From the NCBI GenBank assembly GCA_036478295.1, contig JAZGDW010000139.1:1-62132 (forward strand): a stretch of DNA of 62,132 nucleotides. The letters run 5' to 3'. Of the stretch, positions 10,541 through 58,097 are shown piece after piece. Position 1 is the first letter of the stretch. The number at the start of each line of letters is the position of its first letter. The DNA is from Candidatus Krumholzibacteriia bacterium. Its GTDB lineage: Bacteria > Krumholzibacteriota > Krumholzibacteriia > WVZY01. Below the pieces are notes generated by a model. The model searched no databases. It saw only the letters and a program-made list of their open reading frames with translations, and had not been told where the DNA came from. Position numbers and translations under genes: made by a program.

Positions 10541-11641
10541 ATGAGAAGGCTGCTGATCATCGCTGTGTTGCTTCTTCCAGTCGCCCTGCAAGCACAGGTT
10601 ATTCCGACCACTGAATGGGTGAGCTTCTGGAGTGATCATTCCGTACTCGATTTCAGCTCCGTGCCCGTCGGTTCGGTGGTGCGGGCATACGATCCACAGG
10701 GCGTGCTGTGCGGCGCATTCACGGCGTCCGCTTCCGGGGCCTACGGACTGATGCCCGTCTACCGGGACGATGTGACGACTGTTGGCATCGACGAAGGCGC
10801 GGAGCCCGGTGATATCATCTCGTTCACCGTTGATGACATACCAGCGATCCCCTTCGGCCCGGACGCCGCAGTCTGGACGGCGAACGGGGACATAAGACGG
10901 GTAAACCTGGCCGCGGGAGTGGCCGATCTCGATATCAAACCGGGATCATGCCCCAACATGTTGAACGCGCTGTTGCCCAACGGTCTCCCCACAGACGCGA
11001 GGTCCATGAGAGGCAGCATTTTACCGGTAGCCATTCTGGGTACGGCGAACCTCGACGTACACGACATCGACGTCGCCTCATTGCGTCTCGAAGGCGTGGA
11101 GCCGGTCCGTCACAGCTATGAGGATGTCACCCAACCGGTCGCTGGCGGTGGGGAGTGTGGCTGCGGGACCGGCGGGTCCGACGGCTTCATCGACCTTACG
11201 CTGAAGTTTCGCAGTACGGAGATCATCGCGGCGCTCGGTGCCTTTTCCGATGGCCAGCAGAGGGTACTGACCGTAAGCGGTGCTCTCGCCGACGGCACAC
11301 CGCTTCGGGCGAGTGACTGTGTGGGAGTGCTGGCGAAGAGTCCCAGGGAACCCGAATTGCCGTCGTTGTCAAGCTCCGGTGGTGTGGTGTTGCAACCGGC
11401 TGCCCCCAACCCTTTCAACCCGGTGACGCGCATTGGTTACATACTATCGAACGAAGCCTATGTCAGGCTCGCCGTGTACGATGTTACCGGGAGAGTGGTG
11501 GATCACCTCGTAGCGCACGTGCAGCCCGCTGGTGAGCACGTAGCCGTGTGGGACGCCGGCACATATCCAAGTGGAATCTACTTCTATCGTCTGGAAGTGG
11601 GGCGTTTCAGCGAGACTCGCAAGCTCATCTTGCTCAAGTAG
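10541..11641 (+). CDS. Secreted T9SS cargo protein of unknown function
   Basis: Signal peptide MRRLLIIAVLLLPVALQA. The N-terminal domain is paralogous to aa 1836-1925 of the upstream protease. A central Cys-containing IKPGSCPN domain is present. C-terminal PNPFNPVTRIGY...IYFYRLEVG...RKLILLK. Confidence 0.8.
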   Translation: MRRLLIIAVLLLPVALQAQVIPTTEWVSFWSDHSVLDFSSVPVGSVVRAYDPQGVLCGAFTASASGAYGLMPVYRDDVTTVGIDEGAEPGDIISFTVDDIPAIPFGPDAAVWTANGDIRRVNLAAGVADLDIKPGSCPNMLNALLPNGLPTDARSMRGSILPVAILGTANLDVHDIDVASLRLEGVEPVRHSYEDVTQPVAGGGECGCGTGGSDGFIDLTLKFRSTEIIAALGAFSDGQQRVLTVSGALADGTPLRASDCVGVLAKSPREPELPSLSSSGGVVLQPAAPNPFNPVTRIGYILSNEAYVRLAVYDVTGRVVDHLVAHVQPAGEHVAVWDAGTYPSGIYFYRLEVGRFSETRKLILLK

Positions 11642-16709: not shown

Positions 16710-17348
16710 ATGATGAAACGATTTCCGAGTCAAATTTTCCTAGTGGCCATTTGCGTCGCCCTCGCCGTGCTGGCCGGGTGCGCCAAGCGCGTCATGGTGC
16801 CACCCCGAGTCGACCTGAGCGCGTACAACGCGATCGGTCTCGTTACGTTCTCCTCCAATTCAGAGGGAAACCTCCAGCAATTCGCCACCCAGAAATTCGT
16901 GGAGACACTGCAGTCTTCCCAGTCCGGCGTGCGGGTTCTCGAATTGGGCACCAAAGAACACGTCCTTAAGTCCGTCAGGCGGGACCAGATGGATCACGAG
17001 TCCATCCGCGCCATCGGCGAGAAGTATCGCGTCGACGCGATTATCGTCGGCCACATGGAAGTGACCGATGTCAAACCGAACGTCAGCTTCTCCGCGTTGA
17101 TTACGACGATGAGTGTGTCGGCGGACGTCGAAGCGTCGCTGACCACGCGGCTCTACGAAACCGACAGTGGCGCGACTGCCTGGACCAGCTCGGTGCGCGG
17201 CAAGGAGAACGTCGCCCACGTGGGCCTGACGTCCAGGGGACCGGTCCATTTCGGCGCCGATGATCCCGAGACGGCCTACGGCAAGCTGGTATACGGCCTG
17301 GTCTATTCGATCACGAGAGACTTCCGCGTCCGCTACGTCAAACAGTAG
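16710..17348 (+). CDS. Lipoprotein of unknown function
   Basis: MMKRFPSQIFLVAICVALAVLAGC lipobox. The upstream part of the 442-aa track ORF is antisense to the previous gene and was discarded. Confidence 0.7.
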   Translation: MMKRFPSQIFLVAICVALAVLAGCAKRVMVPPRVDLSAYNAIGLVTFSSNSEGNLQQFATQKFVETLQSSQSGVRVLELGTKEHVLKSVRRDQMDHESIRAIGEKYRVDAIIVGHMEVTDVKPNVSFSALITTMSVSADVEASLTTRLYETDSGATAWTSSVRGKENVAHVGLTSRGPVHFGADDPETAYGKLVYGLVYSITRDFRVRYVKQ

Positions 17349-17360
17349 CTCGGCCCCCAT

Positions 17361-17506
17361 GCGGGGATGAGTGGCGATGCGTGGGTGGGTTGGTGACGGA
17401 GCCGTTGCGGGAACGAGCGAGGATCACCCGCCGTAGGCAGGTAGCCGAGCGAAGTGGAGCACGGCGACGGAGGCGATCCAACCACGCATCGCCACTCCGA
17501 CCCCGC
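17361..17506 (+). repeat. Palindromic structured element, copy 1 (possible 3'-UTR RNA element or REP-like repeat)
   Basis: Conserved core GACGGAGCCGTTGCGGGAACGAGCGAGGATC - 17-nt hairpin - TAGCCGAGCGAAGTGGAGCACGGCGA, enclosed by the outer stem GAGTGGCGATGCGTGG..GGTTGG / CCAACCACGCATCGCCACTC. Lies between convergent gene ends. Confidence 0.75.
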
Positions 17507-38292: not shown

Positions 38293-38928
<636 letters not shown>

Positions 38929-38943
38929 GCTGGCCCTTTAGGG

Positions 38944-39146
38944 GGCGCCTGTTGGGTGTTGACGGAGCCGTCGAATGGCGGTGGCGGGCTGTTGGATTGT
39001 TGACAGAGCCGTTGCGGGAACGAGCGAGGATCACCCCGCGGAGCGGGGTAGCCGAGCGAAGTGGAGCACGGCGAAGGAGACAATTCAACAGCCCGCCCCC
39101 GCCACATCGCGGAGCGCGGCGACAGAAATAATCCAACAGACGCGCC
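38944..39146 (+). repeat. Palindromic structured element, copy 2: a complete inner copy (38977-39104) nested between the arms of a core-less outer copy
   Basis: Inner copy: GGCGGTGGCGGGCTGTTGGATTG-TTGACAGAGCCGTTGCGGGAACGAGCGAGGATC-hairpin-TAGCCGAGCGAAGTGGAGCACGGCGAAGGAGA-CAATTCAACAGCCCGCCCCCGCC. Outer arms: GGCGCCTGTTGGGTGTTGACGGAGCCGT... / ...GGAGCGCGGCGACAGAAATAATCCAACAGACGCGCC. Confidence 0.75.
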
Positions 39147-39734
39147 CTAATGAGCGATCCAGCCGAGCGCCTCTTTGCTGAGTGCCCGGAAGAGCACCGC
39201 CCCCAATTTGGACATACTGTAGGAGTACTTGACGCCCTCGCGCCGCAACGCCCGGTGTTCGGCCTCGGGCACCAGAATACGGAAGGAAACCCCGAGGGCA
39301 TCCATCCGCTGCGCCGATGCGCCCACGGCCGCGATGCGGACGTCCCGCCCCCGGCGGGTCAGCTCGATGTTGACCGGCGCCCCCTGCCGGGAGAACCGGC
39401 TATCGACCCGCTTTTTGACGATGAGAAGTATTTCGTCGCCTTTCCAGGTGTCGATCCGGACCTCACTCCCCGGTACATCCAGGTCGATAACGCCCCCTTC
39501 CTCGAGATCGATCACCATCGTAACACTTTCAACCGCATCGACTTCGGCCTCCGGAGCCTCTCGGCTCTCGACAACCAGCTCGCGAACGGCTTGTTCCCGC
39601 GCCAGCCCGGATGCCGCAGCGCCCCCCGCCGACAGCATCAGAATCAGCGCCCCGGCCACGATGCCGCTAATAAGCTTCAACAGGAACCACAGGTGGCCGT
39701 GCTCGTGGTGGCTCTTAATCGCAGCGTGCTTCAT
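39147..39734 (-). CDS. Membrane-anchored protein of unknown function with His-rich N-terminus
   Basis: MKHAAIKSHHEHGH followed by one TM helix; 195 aa. Confidence 0.55.
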   Translation of the reverse strand: MKHAAIKSHHEHGHLWFLLKLISGIVAGALILMLSAGGAAASGLAREQAVRELVVESREAPEAEVDAVESVTMVIDLEEGGVIDLDVPGSEVRIDTWKGDEILLIVKKRVDSRFSRQGAPVNIELTRRGRDVRIAAVGASAQRMDALGVSFRILVPEAEHRALRREGVKYSYSMSKLGAVLFRALSKEALGWIAH

Positions 39735-56793: not shown

Positions 56794-57010
56794 GGTTGGC
56801 GGGCGGGCTGTTGGATTGCTTCTCTCGCCGTGCTCCACTTCGCTCGGCTAGCCACGGCCCGATGCGGGTGGCAGCGAACGGGCGCCCGGCCGCGCGCAGC
56901 CTGCGAGCACGGACGGGCTGTTCGCTGACAGGACCCGCCTCGGGCCGCGGCTGATCCTCGCTCGTTCCCGCAACGGCTCCGTCACCAACCCAACAGCCCG
57001 CCCGCCAACC
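56794..57010 (-). repeat. Palindromic structured element, copy 3 (minus orientation) with a 103-nt expanded central hairpin
   Basis: Reverse complement reads GGTTGGCGGGCGGGCTGTTGGGTTG-GTGACGGAGCCGTTGCGGGAACGAGCGAGGATC-[103 nt]-TAGCCGAGCGAAGTGGAGCACGGCGAGAGAAG-CAATCCAACAGCCCGCCCGCCAACC. Confidence 0.75.
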
Positions 57011-57062: not shown

Positions 57063-58097
57063 CTACCTGGGTTTCAGGCTGCCCAGCACTTCGGCGACAT
57101 GGTCGATATCACTGCTATCGATGTCCAGATGCGTAACCATGCGAACCAGTAACGGCCCGGAGAGTCCCGCGAGCACGTTTTGCTCGCGCAGGCTCTGTAG
57201 GAACGACTCGAGTGATCCCAGGGACGGATCGACACTGAAGATCACCATGTTGGTTTCCACACTGCGCGCGAGCTCCAACCCTTCTGTCGCCTCGATCACC
57301 CCGGCGAGCTTCACGGCGTTTTCGTGATCGGTCGCGAGCCGCTCCACGTGATGGTCCAGGGCGTAGATCGCCGCGGCGGCGATGACACCCACCTGCCGCA
57401 TACCGCCGCCCAGTTGCTTGCGTTTCTTTCGCGCGGTGTCTATGGTTGCGCCGGTTCCGCCGACGATCGAACCCATTGGGGCCCCGAGACCTTTTGAGAA
57501 GCACATGGACACCGTGTCGGCGCACGCCGTCCAGGTCTCGAAAGAGATTCCCGTCGCCACCACGGCATTGGCCAGCCGGGCGCCGTCCAAGTGTACCTTC
57601 ATATTGTGCGAACCGGCGAGCTCTTTGATCCTCCGCATTTCTTCGAGGGGAAACACCCGGCCTCCGCCGCGATTATGGGTGTTCTCGACCGTGATCACGC
57701 TGCTCACTGGCTGGTGAATATTCAAGGGGCGGATATGGGGAGCAATCTGTTCGGCGGTGATAACGCCGTCGGCGCCGTCGAGCGCATTGAACTGGACTCC
57801 GCACAAAGCGGGAACGGCGGCGACCTCGTTGTTGAAGATGTGAGATTGCCGGTCCAGAATGACTTCGTCACCGGGCCTGGTAATGCTGGCCAGTGCCACG
57901 GTGTTGCCCATGGTCCCGCTGGGCACGAACACGGCGGCCTCGGTGCCCAAAAGCGAAGTCACCCGCTGCTCGAGCTCGAGCACCGTGGGGTCATCCCCGA
58001 ATACGTCGTCTCCGACGACGGCGTCGGCAATCGCCTGGCGCATACCGGCCACGGGACGCGTGACCGTGTCGCTTCGCAGATCCACTACCTTGGGCAT
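57063..58097 (-). CDS. ltaE: Low-specificity L-threonine aldolase
   Basis: DLRSDTVTRP N-terminus. PLP Lys region FSKGLGAP. Confidence 0.85.
   Translation of the reverse strand: MPKVVDLRSDTVTRPVAGMRQAIADAVVGDDVFGDDPTVLELEQRVTSLLGTEAAVFVPSGTMGNTVALASITRPGDEVILDRQSHIFNNEVAAVPALCGVQFNALDGADGVITAEQIAPHIRPLNIHQPVSSVITVENTHNRGGGRVFPLEEMRRIKELAGSHNMKVHLDGARLANAVVATGISFETWTACADTVSMCFSKGLGAPMGSIVGGTGATIDTARKKRKQLGGGMRQVGVIAAAAIYALDHHVERLATDHENAVKLAGVIEATEGLELARSVETNMVIFSVDPSLGSLESFLQSLREQNVLAGLSGPLLVRMVTHLDIDSSDIDHVAEVLGSLKPR

What the first reader, a model, noticed from the sequence alone, without database searches (positions are those of the whole stretch)
17361..17506. Family of long palindromic elements with a conserved bipartite core and copy-specific but self-complementary stems (three loci)
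Loci 17361-17506 (+), 38977-39104 (+) and 56794-57010 (-) share two conserved blocks: GAC(G/A)GAGCCGTTGCGGGAACGAGCGAGGATC and TAGCCGAGCGAAGTGGAGCACGGCGA. The blocks are separated by a variable hairpin and enclosed by a 20-25-bp outer stem. The outer stems differ between copies yet remain complementary within each copy. Copy 1: GAGTGGCGATGCGTGG..GGTTGG / CCAACCACGCATCGCCACTC. Copy 2: GGCGGTGGCGGGCTGTTGGATTG / CAATTCAACAGCCCGCCCCCGCC. Copy 3: GGTTGGCGGGCGGGCTGTTGGGTTG / CAATCCAACAGCCCGCCCGCCAACC. The central hairpin also changes while keeping its pairing (ACCCGCC-GTAG-GCAGGT versus ACCCCGC-GGA-GCGGGGT). GCCGT in the left block can pair with ACGGC in the right block. Each copy sits immediately 3' of a gene and in that gene's orientation: lipoprotein 16710-17348 (+), peroxiredoxin 38293-38928 (+), ltaE 57063-58097 (-). 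A conserved unpaired core with varying but compensated stems is what structured RNAs look like. A REP/MITE-like DNA element is the alternative. I do not recognise the core as any named RNA family.
Basis: seen in the sequence. Interest (0 to 1): 0.6.

Follow-up and report, generated by a model that had tools for sequence, protein, structure and literature searches.

The report
Nested palindromic DNA repeat of Krumholzibacteria
The three hairpin loci are copies of an undescribed dispersed DNA repeat of uncultured Krumholzibacteria, and at least some of its copy-specific stems come from the genome copying neighbouring sequence backwards, not from RNA-level selection.

Summary
All three loci carry the two identical blocks (0 expected by chance). 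They belong to a family with about 54 loci in this 3.5-Mb draft genome and 0 to about 50 copies in related genomes. An exact-core scan of 185,579 species genomes found it only in six Krumholzibacteriia/"Latescibacterota" MAGs.

Each unit is a long rod. Its roughly 80-nt core alternates Watson-Crick steps with conserved tandem G.A steps, so the purine-rich strand folds better. Covariation is strong, and Rfam has no match.

The RNA reading is not favoured:
- Copies show no sense bias relative to genes (22 sense, 37 antisense, 33 convergent, 5 divergent).
- Copies are present or absent at orthologous sites and patchy among close relatives.
- Copies are stacked, co-oriented, inside one another.

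At contig C310, one arm is the conserved end of a gene and the other arm is its inverted copy, while a sister genome has a clean 4-5-nt empty site. At least some arms are therefore made at the DNA level, probably by fold-back or template-switch copying.

No RAYT, TnpB or DUF559 gene was found, so the mobilising enzyme is unknown.

The scan had already noted this family on another contig of this genome (e1-4440526), and similar repeats in other phyla.

The parts
17369..17497 (+). Copy 1, short form. It has a 25-nt 5' arm (17369-17393), left half of the core, 17-nt apical hairpin (17426-17442), right half of the core, and a 25-nt 3' arm (17473-17497).
   Evidence: Read. Blocks located. Arms paired. 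The fold is a single rod at -78 kcal/mol.
17354..17368 (+). Remnant of the left block of an older, outer copy (CCCCCATGCGGGGAT). Its partner remnant CGACCCCGC (start of the outer apical hairpin) is at 17498-17506.
   Evidence: By comparison with the variant left blocks GACCCCCATGCGGGAGC listed and the nested junctions.
38976..39104 (+). Copy 2, short form (inner copy). Arms are at 38976-39000 and 39080-39104.
38941..38975 (+). 5' half of an older outer copy split by copy 2 (arm GGGGGCGCCTGTTGGGTGT followed by TGACGGAGCCGTCGAA).
   Evidence: Read. It has the same layout as the nested arrays.
39105..39146 (+). 3' half of that outer copy (..GCGGAGCGCGGCGACAGAAAT followed by arm AATCCAACAGACGCGCC). 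It ends against the stop codon of the minus-strand gene 39147-39734.
56794..57010 (-). Copy 3, long form. This is the same shell (22-27-bp arms, left and right blocks) with the X repeat at its apex. The orthologous site in the sister genome G001 is a 31-nt spacer without the element.
56851..56952 (-). X, a separate conserved palindromic repeat (core GGGTCCTGTCAGCGAACAGCCCGTCCGTGCTCGCAGGCTGCGCGCGGCCGGGCGCCCGTTCGCTGCCACCC with its own closing stem) that takes the place of the small apical hairpin.
   Evidence: Stand-alone X copies occur elsewhere in G000. A query spanning copy 3 and its flanking genes gave 47 repeat hits in G001, most over the X part.

Best explanation
The loci are copies of a non-coding, palindromic, dispersed DNA repeat family confined to one family of Krumholzibacteriia. 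It belongs to the same broad class as REP/BIME, ERIC, Correia and RPE elements, and it has unusual anatomy.

Anatomy. The heritable unit is a core of about 80 nt that folds as a rod. Short Watson-Crick steps alternate with conserved tandem G.A/A.G steps (GACGGA against GACGGA, GAGCGA against GAGCGA). A 7-bp hairpin caps the rod. Because both sides of these loops are purine-rich, the purine-rich strand folds better than its complement. Arms of 20-43 bp clamp the core.

Shown here:
- The family spreads or is lost as DNA. There are filled and empty orthologous sites, from 0 to about 50 copies in close relatives, strong enrichment at gene 3' ends, and no divergent-gene sites among 43 in G000 (5 of 97 over all genomes).
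- Copies pile up in one orientation inside one another. The innermost copy is always the intact one, and the unrelated X repeat also sits at the apex.
- The private arms are, at least in part, DNA-level products. At C310 one arm is the conserved last 20 nt of a gene and the other arm is its inverted copy. In G011 the arms share nothing between copies.

Inferred:
- Arms are created, extended and kept perfect by fold-back or template-switch DNA synthesis across the hairpin. This is the known quasipalindrome-correction mechanism.
- The conserved non-Watson-Crick core survives that correction because an unidentified trans-acting protein, a recombinase or nuclease, reads it as a folded single strand. 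That protein would move the core and prefers hairpin tips and gene ends.
- Any effect on mRNA 3' ends would be a by-product.
For: Copy number and range:
- G000 has 54 loci holding two or more family or X motifs, 36 of them with complete cores.
- An exact-core scan of 185,579 species genomes found the core only in six Krumholzibacteriia/'Latescibacterota' MAGs.
- With the G000 copy as query, 10 of 12 genomes of the own family match, 4 of 23 of the sister family, and none in five genomes from five further families of the class.

Filled and empty sites:
- Window copy 3 faces a 31-nt spacer in G001.
- The 238-bp C310 array faces a 4-5-nt spacer in G001.
- G011 has about 45 copies, while its congener G012 has none.

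Nesting:
- 53 of 54 loci are uniform in orientation, with up to six stacked 5' halves.
- The inner copy sits just after ..GAGCGAGG of the outer copy.

Gene context:
- In G000, 19 sites are convergent, 24 tandem and 0 divergent, against 4.6, 33.6 and 4.8 expected (p about 3e-12).
- There is no sense bias.
- In G011, plus- and minus-strand copies are interspersed along the chromosome.

Structure:
- Per-pair counts on 26 gapless G000 copies are, and counts on 72 copies from nine genomes.
- In five copies the second tandem G.A step is replaced by G-C, three of them with A-T at the neighbouring position.
- The top strand is more stable than the bottom strand in 27 of 27 copies, with both RNA and DNA parameters.
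- Outer stems hold 33 G.T/T.G mismatches against 4 A.C/C.A.

Arms:
- A copy's own 5' flank is the best partner of its own 3' flank in 25 of 36 and 23 of 39 copies.
- G011 arms are unrelated between copies.
- The C310 left arm encodes SLTSSF*. That C-terminus is conserved in eight of eleven orthologues of the family, and the right arm is its perfect inverted copy.

Published mechanism: template switching perfects and expands inverted repeats (PMC7202029, PMC8794818, PMC13100816).
Against: - No mobilising enzyme was found. Y1/RAYT gave one borderline hit in 13 genomes, TnpB gave 0 of 13 and DUF559 gave 0 of 13. IS110 genes occur in 6 of 13 genomes but never next to a copy.
- No copy carries an ORF.
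- There are no identical copies in G000. The closest pair is 96% alike, so no recent burst is seen.
- The core at orthologous filled sites is far better conserved than the surrounding intergenic DNA. This could mean a host function.
- Only one locus (C310), with a second weaker case at C54, proves flank-derived arms in G000. Most G000 arms follow a family consensus and look inherited.
- Whether the inverted copy arises at insertion or later is unknown.
- The excess of G.T over A.C is partly due to fixed positions and is inflated by my scoring, which penalised A.C more than G.T.
- Gene calls come from a home-made codon-usage caller.
Confidence: 0.6

Rival explanations
1. The family is a functional structured RNA. 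It would be a 3'-UTR stabiliser or terminator, a protein sponge, or a multicopy small RNA whose purine-rich strand is the active molecule. The genomic copies would be its genes.
For: - The fold covaries strongly.
- The fold is strand-specific, with G.U tolerated and tandem G.A steps conserved.
- The core is almost invariant across genera.
- Copies lie at gene 3' ends.
- The core is kept at orthologous sites while the flanks are scrambled.
Against: - Where orientation can be scored, 37 copies are antisense and 22 sense. Read-through transcripts would therefore mostly carry the weaker strand.
- No promoter-like motif is conserved across genera. TTGAC occurs only in the G000 lineage.
- No U-run follows the rod, and one neighbouring gene has its own terminator upstream of the array.
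- Copy number runs from 0 to about 50 among close relatives.
- The family has no CsrA gene.
- There is no Rfam match.
- Outer-stem 'covariation' is explained at the DNA level at C310.
Confidence: 0.17
2. The family is a domesticated DNA element. The copies would be binding or structural sites for a host protein (nucleoid protein, gyrase-like or repair enzyme), or cruciform-forming punctuation kept by selection and no longer mobile, as proposed for some REP/BIME.
For: - There are no identical copies and no transposase.
- The core is conserved at orthologous sites.
- Placement at gene ends is non-random.
Against: - A double-stranded binding site would not need one strand to fold better, nor conserved G.A steps.
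- Absence from G012 and G003, whose relatives carry dozens of copies, argues against a needed host function.
- Co-oriented nesting and empty sites need a spreading process.
Confidence: 0.13
3. The arms pre-exist. On this view a mobile core seeks the tips of palindromes already present, such as terminators or older repeats, and the private stems are simply the old hairpins.
For: - New copies and X sit at the apex of older copies.
- Copies lie where terminators are expected.
Against: - The C310 site in G001 is a 4-5-nt spacer between two stop codons with no palindrome, and one G000 arm is coding sequence.
- Perfect arms of 20-43 bp are much longer than ordinary terminator stems.
Confidence: 0.07

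Closest known systems
REP / BIME / REPIN elements with RAYT (Y1) transposases, including the GTAG- and CGTC-tagged families (PMC3733652, PMC3116915)
   Same: - Both are intergenic palindromes in many copies, mostly between convergent or co-directional genes.
- Both are often clustered.
- Both are thought to act as a folded single strand.
- Both include imperfect hairpins with conserved unpaired bases.
   Different: - The unit here is 130-220 bp with 20-43-bp arms, against 20-40 bp with 8-9-bp stems.
- Copies are nested in one orientation, not alternating.
- The arms are private to each copy.
- A GTAG at the hairpin/right-block junction is present in G000 but is AAGCC in G011.
- There is no convincing RAYT gene in 13 genomes.
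Bacterial MITEs and structured intergenic repeats (Correia/NEMIS, ERIC/IRU, RUP, and Rickettsia RPEs), from my own knowledge and as named in earlier notes of this scan
   Same: They share the size class (100-200 bp), the long hairpin fold, the lack of coding capacity, the presence/absence differences between relatives, and the siting near gene ends.
   Different: - This family has no shared terminal inverted repeats.
- It has no target-site duplications at the sites I examined.
- It has no parent IS.
- The conserved part is the centre, not the ends.
Quasipalindrome template-switch mutagenesis and inverted-repeat expansion (PMC7202029, PMC8794818, PMC13100816)
   Same: It explains how both arms change together, stay perfect and grow into the flank. 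The C310 arm pair shows exactly this outcome.
   Different: This is a general mutational process, not an element family. It does not explain the conserved non-Watson-Crick core or the dispersal of the core.
Integron attC sites and IS200/IS605 ends (from my own knowledge)
   Same: These are analogies of mechanism only. In both, a recombinase reads one folded DNA strand through structure and unpaired bases, while the stem sequence is free to vary.
   Different: - The copies here are not in cassette arrays.
- The GTTRRRY/RYYYAAC-like words in G000 arms are in the wrong order and are absent in other genera.
- No Y1 transposase or TnpB was found.

Membership tests
REP/REPIN-RAYT | A RAYT (Y1 HUH transposase, PF01797) gene in the genome, typically flanked by the repeats. 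| tested here: not met
   There are 0 hits in G000 (91% complete). One borderline 23-bit hit, in G007, is the only hit among 13 genomes of the family, including the complete G011. The control genomes gave hits.
REP/REPIN-RAYT | A short (20-40 bp) palindrome with a conserved GTAG or CGTC tag at one end. | tested here: not met
   The unit is 130-220 bp. GGGTAGCC occurs in G000 but reads GGGAAGCC in G011. The criteria come from PMC3733652.
MITE (DDE-transposon derived) | Terminal inverted repeats shared by all copies, plus direct target-site duplications. | tested here: not met
   The arms differ between copies: median arm identity is 60% in G000 and the arms are unrelated in G011. No direct repeats flank the six primary sites I read, nor C310.
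MITE / IS200-IS605 PATE | An autonomous partner element with the same ends carrying a transposase or TnpB. | tested here: not met
   In G000, G011 and G008, paired left and right blocks lie at most about 130 nt apart, and none encloses an ORF. TnpB (PF07282) gave 0 of 13. IS110 genes have no repeat motif within 1.5 kb.
Any Rfam 15 RNA family | A score at or above the family's gathering threshold. | tested here: not met
   There are 0 hits on the whole window at gathering thresholds. With E up to 10 there are only chance-level hits, the best at 20.7 bits against an 83-bit threshold.
Intrinsic (Rho-independent) terminator | A GC-rich hairpin followed directly by a U-run on the transcribed strand. 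| tested here: not met
   No T-run follows the rod on either strand in the flanks listed. The gene upstream of the C62 array has its own hairpin and T-run before the array. No terminator-prediction tool was run.
Palindromic repeats bracketing DUF559 nuclease genes (a lead from earlier notes) | A DUF559 (PF04480) gene in the genome, flanked by the repeat. | tested here: not met
   DUF559 gave 0 of 13 genomes.
Structured non-coding RNA (generic) | Copies oriented with transcription, or carrying their own promoter, and a detectable stable transcript. | tested here: inconclusive
   The orientation test went against this: 22 sense and 37 antisense.

The most novel reading that the evidence does not exclude
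The conserved G.A-zipper core may be the handle of an undescribed hairpin-specific mobilisation system with no Y1, TnpB or DUF559 enzyme. In this reading, its insertion or repair step itself writes an inverted copy of the target flank, so every new copy gets a private clamp. Similar 'conserved core in private inverted repeats' families noted by this scan in CPR bacteria, Collinsella and Bacteroidota would then be instances of one general, overlooked class of bacterial mobile DNA.
Probability: 0.2. Interest if true: 0.8.

Novelty: new variant of a known kind. Interest (0 to 1): 0.5.

Why it matters
- It gives a concrete, checkable example in which apparent compensatory evolution of long stems, usually taken as the hallmark of a structured RNA, comes from DNA-level inverted copying of the flank. 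This is a caution for RNA-motif discovery in metagenomes.
- It documents a repeat family that shapes intergenic regions and breaks assemblies in an uncultured phylum. Many copies in this draft lie at contig ends.
- The alternation of Watson-Crick and tandem G.A steps, conserved across genera, points to an unknown protein that reads a folded single strand.
- If the inverted flank copy is written at insertion, that would be an unusual transposition outcome.

Tried and rejected
- RAYT/Y1 transposase partner: rejected.
- TnpB/IS605 partner: rejected.
- DUF559 nuclease partner, a lead from earlier notes: rejected.
- IS110 link: these genes occur in 6 of 13 genomes, but no repeat motif lies within 1.5 kb of six of them. 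Not supported.
- CsrA sponge idea, prompted by five GGA motifs per unit: rejected, because the family has no CsrA gene.
- Known RNA family: none.
- Integron attC: by reading only, the box order is wrong and the words are absent in other genera.
- CRISPR-like array for the stacked 5' halves: rejected, because the 'spacers' are 12-14 nt and related to each other.
- Fold-back copying as the source of whole layers: rejected, because right blocks are not complements of left blocks.
- Target-derived arms in nested copies: not supported in several cases, where the outer hairpin arm follows the inner arm intact.
- Replication-linked orientation: none visible in G011. This was judged by eye, and the origin was not mapped.
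- Strain-level empty sites: the look-up of encoding contigs returned only the same population at 99.98% identity. The metagenome scan gave relatives of at most 60% protein identity. G012 is too far from G011, at about 70% nt identity with broken synteny.
- The 12-mer core hits in G012 and G003 turned out to be chance matches in non-repeat sequence, with no right block nearby.
- C8:7284-7800 motif hits are a coding tandem repeat.

Full report
**1. Observation**

The three loci read as described. The 27-nt left block and the 26-nt right block each occur exactly three times in the window without a mismatch. None of 100 shuffles gave any match.

The element boundaries are:
- Copy 1: 17369-17497 (+)
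- Copy 2: 38976-39104 (+)
- Copy 3: 56794-57010 (-)

Three refinements follow.
- Copy 2 sits between the two halves of an older copy (38941-38975 and 39105-39146).
- Copy 1 sits between remnants of another older copy (17354-17368 and 17498-17506).
- The long middle of copy 3 is not a variable hairpin. It is a second, highly conserved palindromic repeat, called X here, which also occurs alone.

**2. Extent**

The window is contig C45 of a 3.52-Mb draft genome of 316 contigs at 59.8% GC. Motif searches find 54 loci holding two or more family or X motifs, 36 of them with complete cores. Many lie at contig ends.

An exact-core scan of 185,579 species genomes found the core only in six MAGs labelled Krumholzibacteriia or Latescibacterota/Latescibacteria, or left unclassified. 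With the G000 copy as query, 10 of 12 genomes of the own family match, 4 of 23 of the sister family, and none in five genomes from five further families of the class.

Copy number is very uneven:
- Core-motif hits give roughly 45 copies in the complete genome G011 and about 40 in G008.
- G004 has 15 hits.
- G012, the congener of G011, and G003 have none. Their few 12-mer hits are chance matches with no right block nearby.

**3. Anatomy**

Twenty-six G000 copies align without a single gap over 138 nt. Pair counts on them define one long rod. From the outside to the tip it runs:

| Segment | Content |
|---|---|
| P1 | Outer arm of about 23 bp, with many pair types per position |
| Wobble | T.G |
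| G.A step 1 | Tandem G.A/A.G |
| WC step | C-G, G-C |
| G.A step 2 | Tandem G.A/A.G; replaced by G-C in five copies, three of them with A-T alongside |
| P2a | GCCG/CGGC |
| Bulge | One T |
| P2b | YGC/GCR (T-A in 8 copies, C-G in 9, T.G in 8) |
| Loop | GGGA opposite GGA |
| P3 | RC/GY (A-T in 12 copies, G-C in 12) |
| G.A step 3 | Tandem G.A with a bulged A |
| WC step | G-C, C-G |
| G.A step 4 | Tandem G.A |
| WC step | G-C, G-C |
| Single pairs | A.G, then T-A |
| P6 | 7-bp hairpin |

The loops are the same purine-rich word on both sides (GACGGA against GACGGA, GAGCGA against GAGCGA). The complementary strand would therefore carry pyrimidine-pyrimidine mismatches at these places.

Several results follow from this:
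- The purine-rich strand is the more stable one in 27 of 27 copies. The means are -82 against -68 kcal/mol with RNA parameters and -43 against -37 with DNA parameters.
- Outer stems hold 33 G.T/T.G mismatches against 4 A.C/C.A. This count is partly inflated by fixed positions and by my scoring.
- On 72 copies from nine genomes, the core helices are 87.6% paired, with 115 cells changed on both sides. No shuffle out of 500 reached this, and slid controls give 28-37% paired.
- Rfam has nothing at gathering thresholds and only chance-level hits at E up to 10.

**4. Behaviour as DNA**

*Empty sites.* The 286-bp gap that holds copy 3 is a 31-nt gap in the sister genome G001. Other G001/G000 pairs show presence against absence, or different numbers of layers, in otherwise scrambled spacers.

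*Nesting.* 53 of 54 loci are uniform in orientation, with up to six 5' halves stacked before one intact core. The innermost copy is always the intact one. It sits directly after ..GAGCGAGG of the outer copy and before, or in place of, the outer apical hairpin. X occupies the same apical position in the long form.

*Gene context.* In G000, 19 sites are convergent, 24 tandem and 0 divergent, against 4.6, 33.6 and 4.8 expected from gene junctions (p about 3e-12).

*Orientation.*

| Genomes | Sense | Antisense |
|---|---|---|
| G000 | 6 | 18 |
| G011 | 12 | 13 |
| Four other genomes | 4 | 6 |
| Pooled | 22 | 37 |

In G011, plus- and minus-strand copies are interspersed along the 4.3-Mb chromosome. 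Gene calls come from my own codon-usage caller. I checked it on the window against ORF listing.

*Ends.* No target-site duplications appear at the sites I read. The closest intragenomic pair is 96% identical, so no recent burst is seen.

**5. Where the private stems come from**

Each copy's 5' flank pairs best with its own 3' flank in 25 of 36 copies in G000 and 23 of 39 in other genomes. Mean energies are -64 against -43 kcal/mol for self and non-self pairs.

In G000 most arms follow a family consensus (GGCGGTGCG..GTTGGGTTG) and group into subfamilies. In G011 the arms are 14-43 bp (mostly 20-29 bp), almost perfect within a copy and unrelated between copies. The cores look nearly identical by eye. 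The G011 arms therefore cannot have travelled with the core.

- At G000 C310, the outermost perfect 20-bp inverted repeat is GCCTGACGTCATCGTTCTGA and TCAGAACGATGACGTCAGGC.
- The left arm encodes the last six codons and the stop (SLTSSF*) of an M1-peptidase/Omp85 gene.
- The same C-terminus..YRYV(L/F)SLxxxF*, ends eight of the eleven orthologues found in the family. G004 and G009 carry short extensions and G010 was misread. The left arm is therefore ancestral coding DNA and the right arm is an inverted copy of it.
- In G001 the two convergent genes are 4-5 nt apart (TGA GCAC CTA). G000 holds 238 bp of nested repeats there.
- The inverted copy even supplies the last codon and stop of the convergent aminotransferase, still reading Ala-stop.

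There are two weaker cases.
- At C54:3663-3952, a perfect 23-bp outer repeat does not resemble the family consensus.
- At the copy-3 site, G001 reads GGTCCGCCCGCAAATA where G000 has the distal 3' arm CCCGCCCGCCAACCA.

Template switching across quasipalindromes is an established process. It makes both arms change together and lengthens inverted repeats (PMC7202029, PMC8794818, PMC13100816). It would also erase the G.A loops unless something keeps them. The invariant core therefore looks like the constrained, functional part of the element.

**6. Partner enzyme**

None was found.

| Family searched | Result |
|---|---|
| Y1/RAYT (PF01797) | 0 in G000; one borderline hit in 13 genomes |
| TnpB (PF07282) | 0 of 13 |
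| DUF559 (PF04480) | 0 of 13 |
| CsrA (PF02599) | 0 of 13 |
| IS110 (PF01548) | 6 of 13; no repeat motif within 1.5 kb of six genes |

In G000, G011 and G008, paired left and right blocks lie at most about 130 nt apart, and none encloses an ORF.

**7. Reading**

The best explanation is a selfish or mobile palindromic DNA repeat. An unknown protein reads its folded purine-rich core, and DNA-level fold-back copying makes and maintains its arms (confidence 0.6).

A functional RNA remains possible (0.17). The fold is strand-specific, and the core is conserved at orthologous sites while the flanks are scrambled. Orientation, patchiness and the origin of the arms argue against it.

A domesticated DNA site (0.13) and insertion into pre-existing palindromes (0.07) are the remaining rivals.

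**8. Comparison and novelty**

The family belongs to the broad class of bacterial intergenic palindromic repeats. It fails the defining tests of REP/RAYT, MITEs, IS200/IS605 derivatives, attC sites and every Rfam family.

Three features look new:
- the regular alternation of Watson-Crick and tandem G.A steps, conserved across genera;
- the co-oriented, Russian-doll stacking at the apex;
- direct evidence that private arms are inverted copies of the flank.

Earlier notes of this scan describe similar repeats, a conserved core in private inverted repeats, in other phyla. I did not test those. I rate this a new variant of a known kind, of moderate interest.

Noticed in passing
window 56851-56952 (-); G000 C81:2344-2597, C226:71-324, C230:1-254, C310:36018-36271: X is a second palindromic repeat family of about 80-110 nt with a highly conserved core. 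It occurs alone or at the apex of the main repeat. The copy-3 query gave 47 repeat hits in G001, most over the X part, including a tandem run at G001:C112:3445-3659. It has no Rfam match.
   Followed up: partly
G000 C310:21580-21599: The inverted copy of the end of the M1-Omp85 gene overlaps the last codon and stop of the convergent aminotransferase gene. That end reads GCC TGA (Ala-stop) in G000 and GCG TAG (Ala-stop) in G001. The repeat has therefore rewritten a gene end without changing the protein.
   Followed up: partly
G000 C62:about 10610-10660 and G001 L050 (C109): The gene upstream of this repeat array has its own canonical hairpin-plus-T-run terminator before the array in both genomes. 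G000 carries four layers where G001 has one.
   Followed up: partly
L081 (G011:C1:1473700-1477900), about 2010-2201: This is a tandem duplication of core plus 3' arm (arm5-core-arm3-core-arm3), a different way for arrays to grow.
   Followed up: no
G000 C8:7284-7800: This is a tandem repeat that reads through as coding sequence (..IAERSKIFEK.., period about 48-51 nt). It shares the word GCCGAGCG with the repeat by chance and is unrelated to the family.
   Followed up: no
L110-L115 (G007, G008, G001, G002, G011, G010): IS110-family transposase genes occur in 6 of 13 genomes of the family, all of them repeat-bearing. None were found in G000, G003, G004 or G012. None lies next to a repeat copy.
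   Followed up: partly
window 39130-39149: The 3' arm of the outer shell around copy 2 runs right up to the stop codon (CTA, 39147-39149) of the minus-strand gene 39147-39734. The repeats fill this convergent gap almost completely.
   Followed up: no
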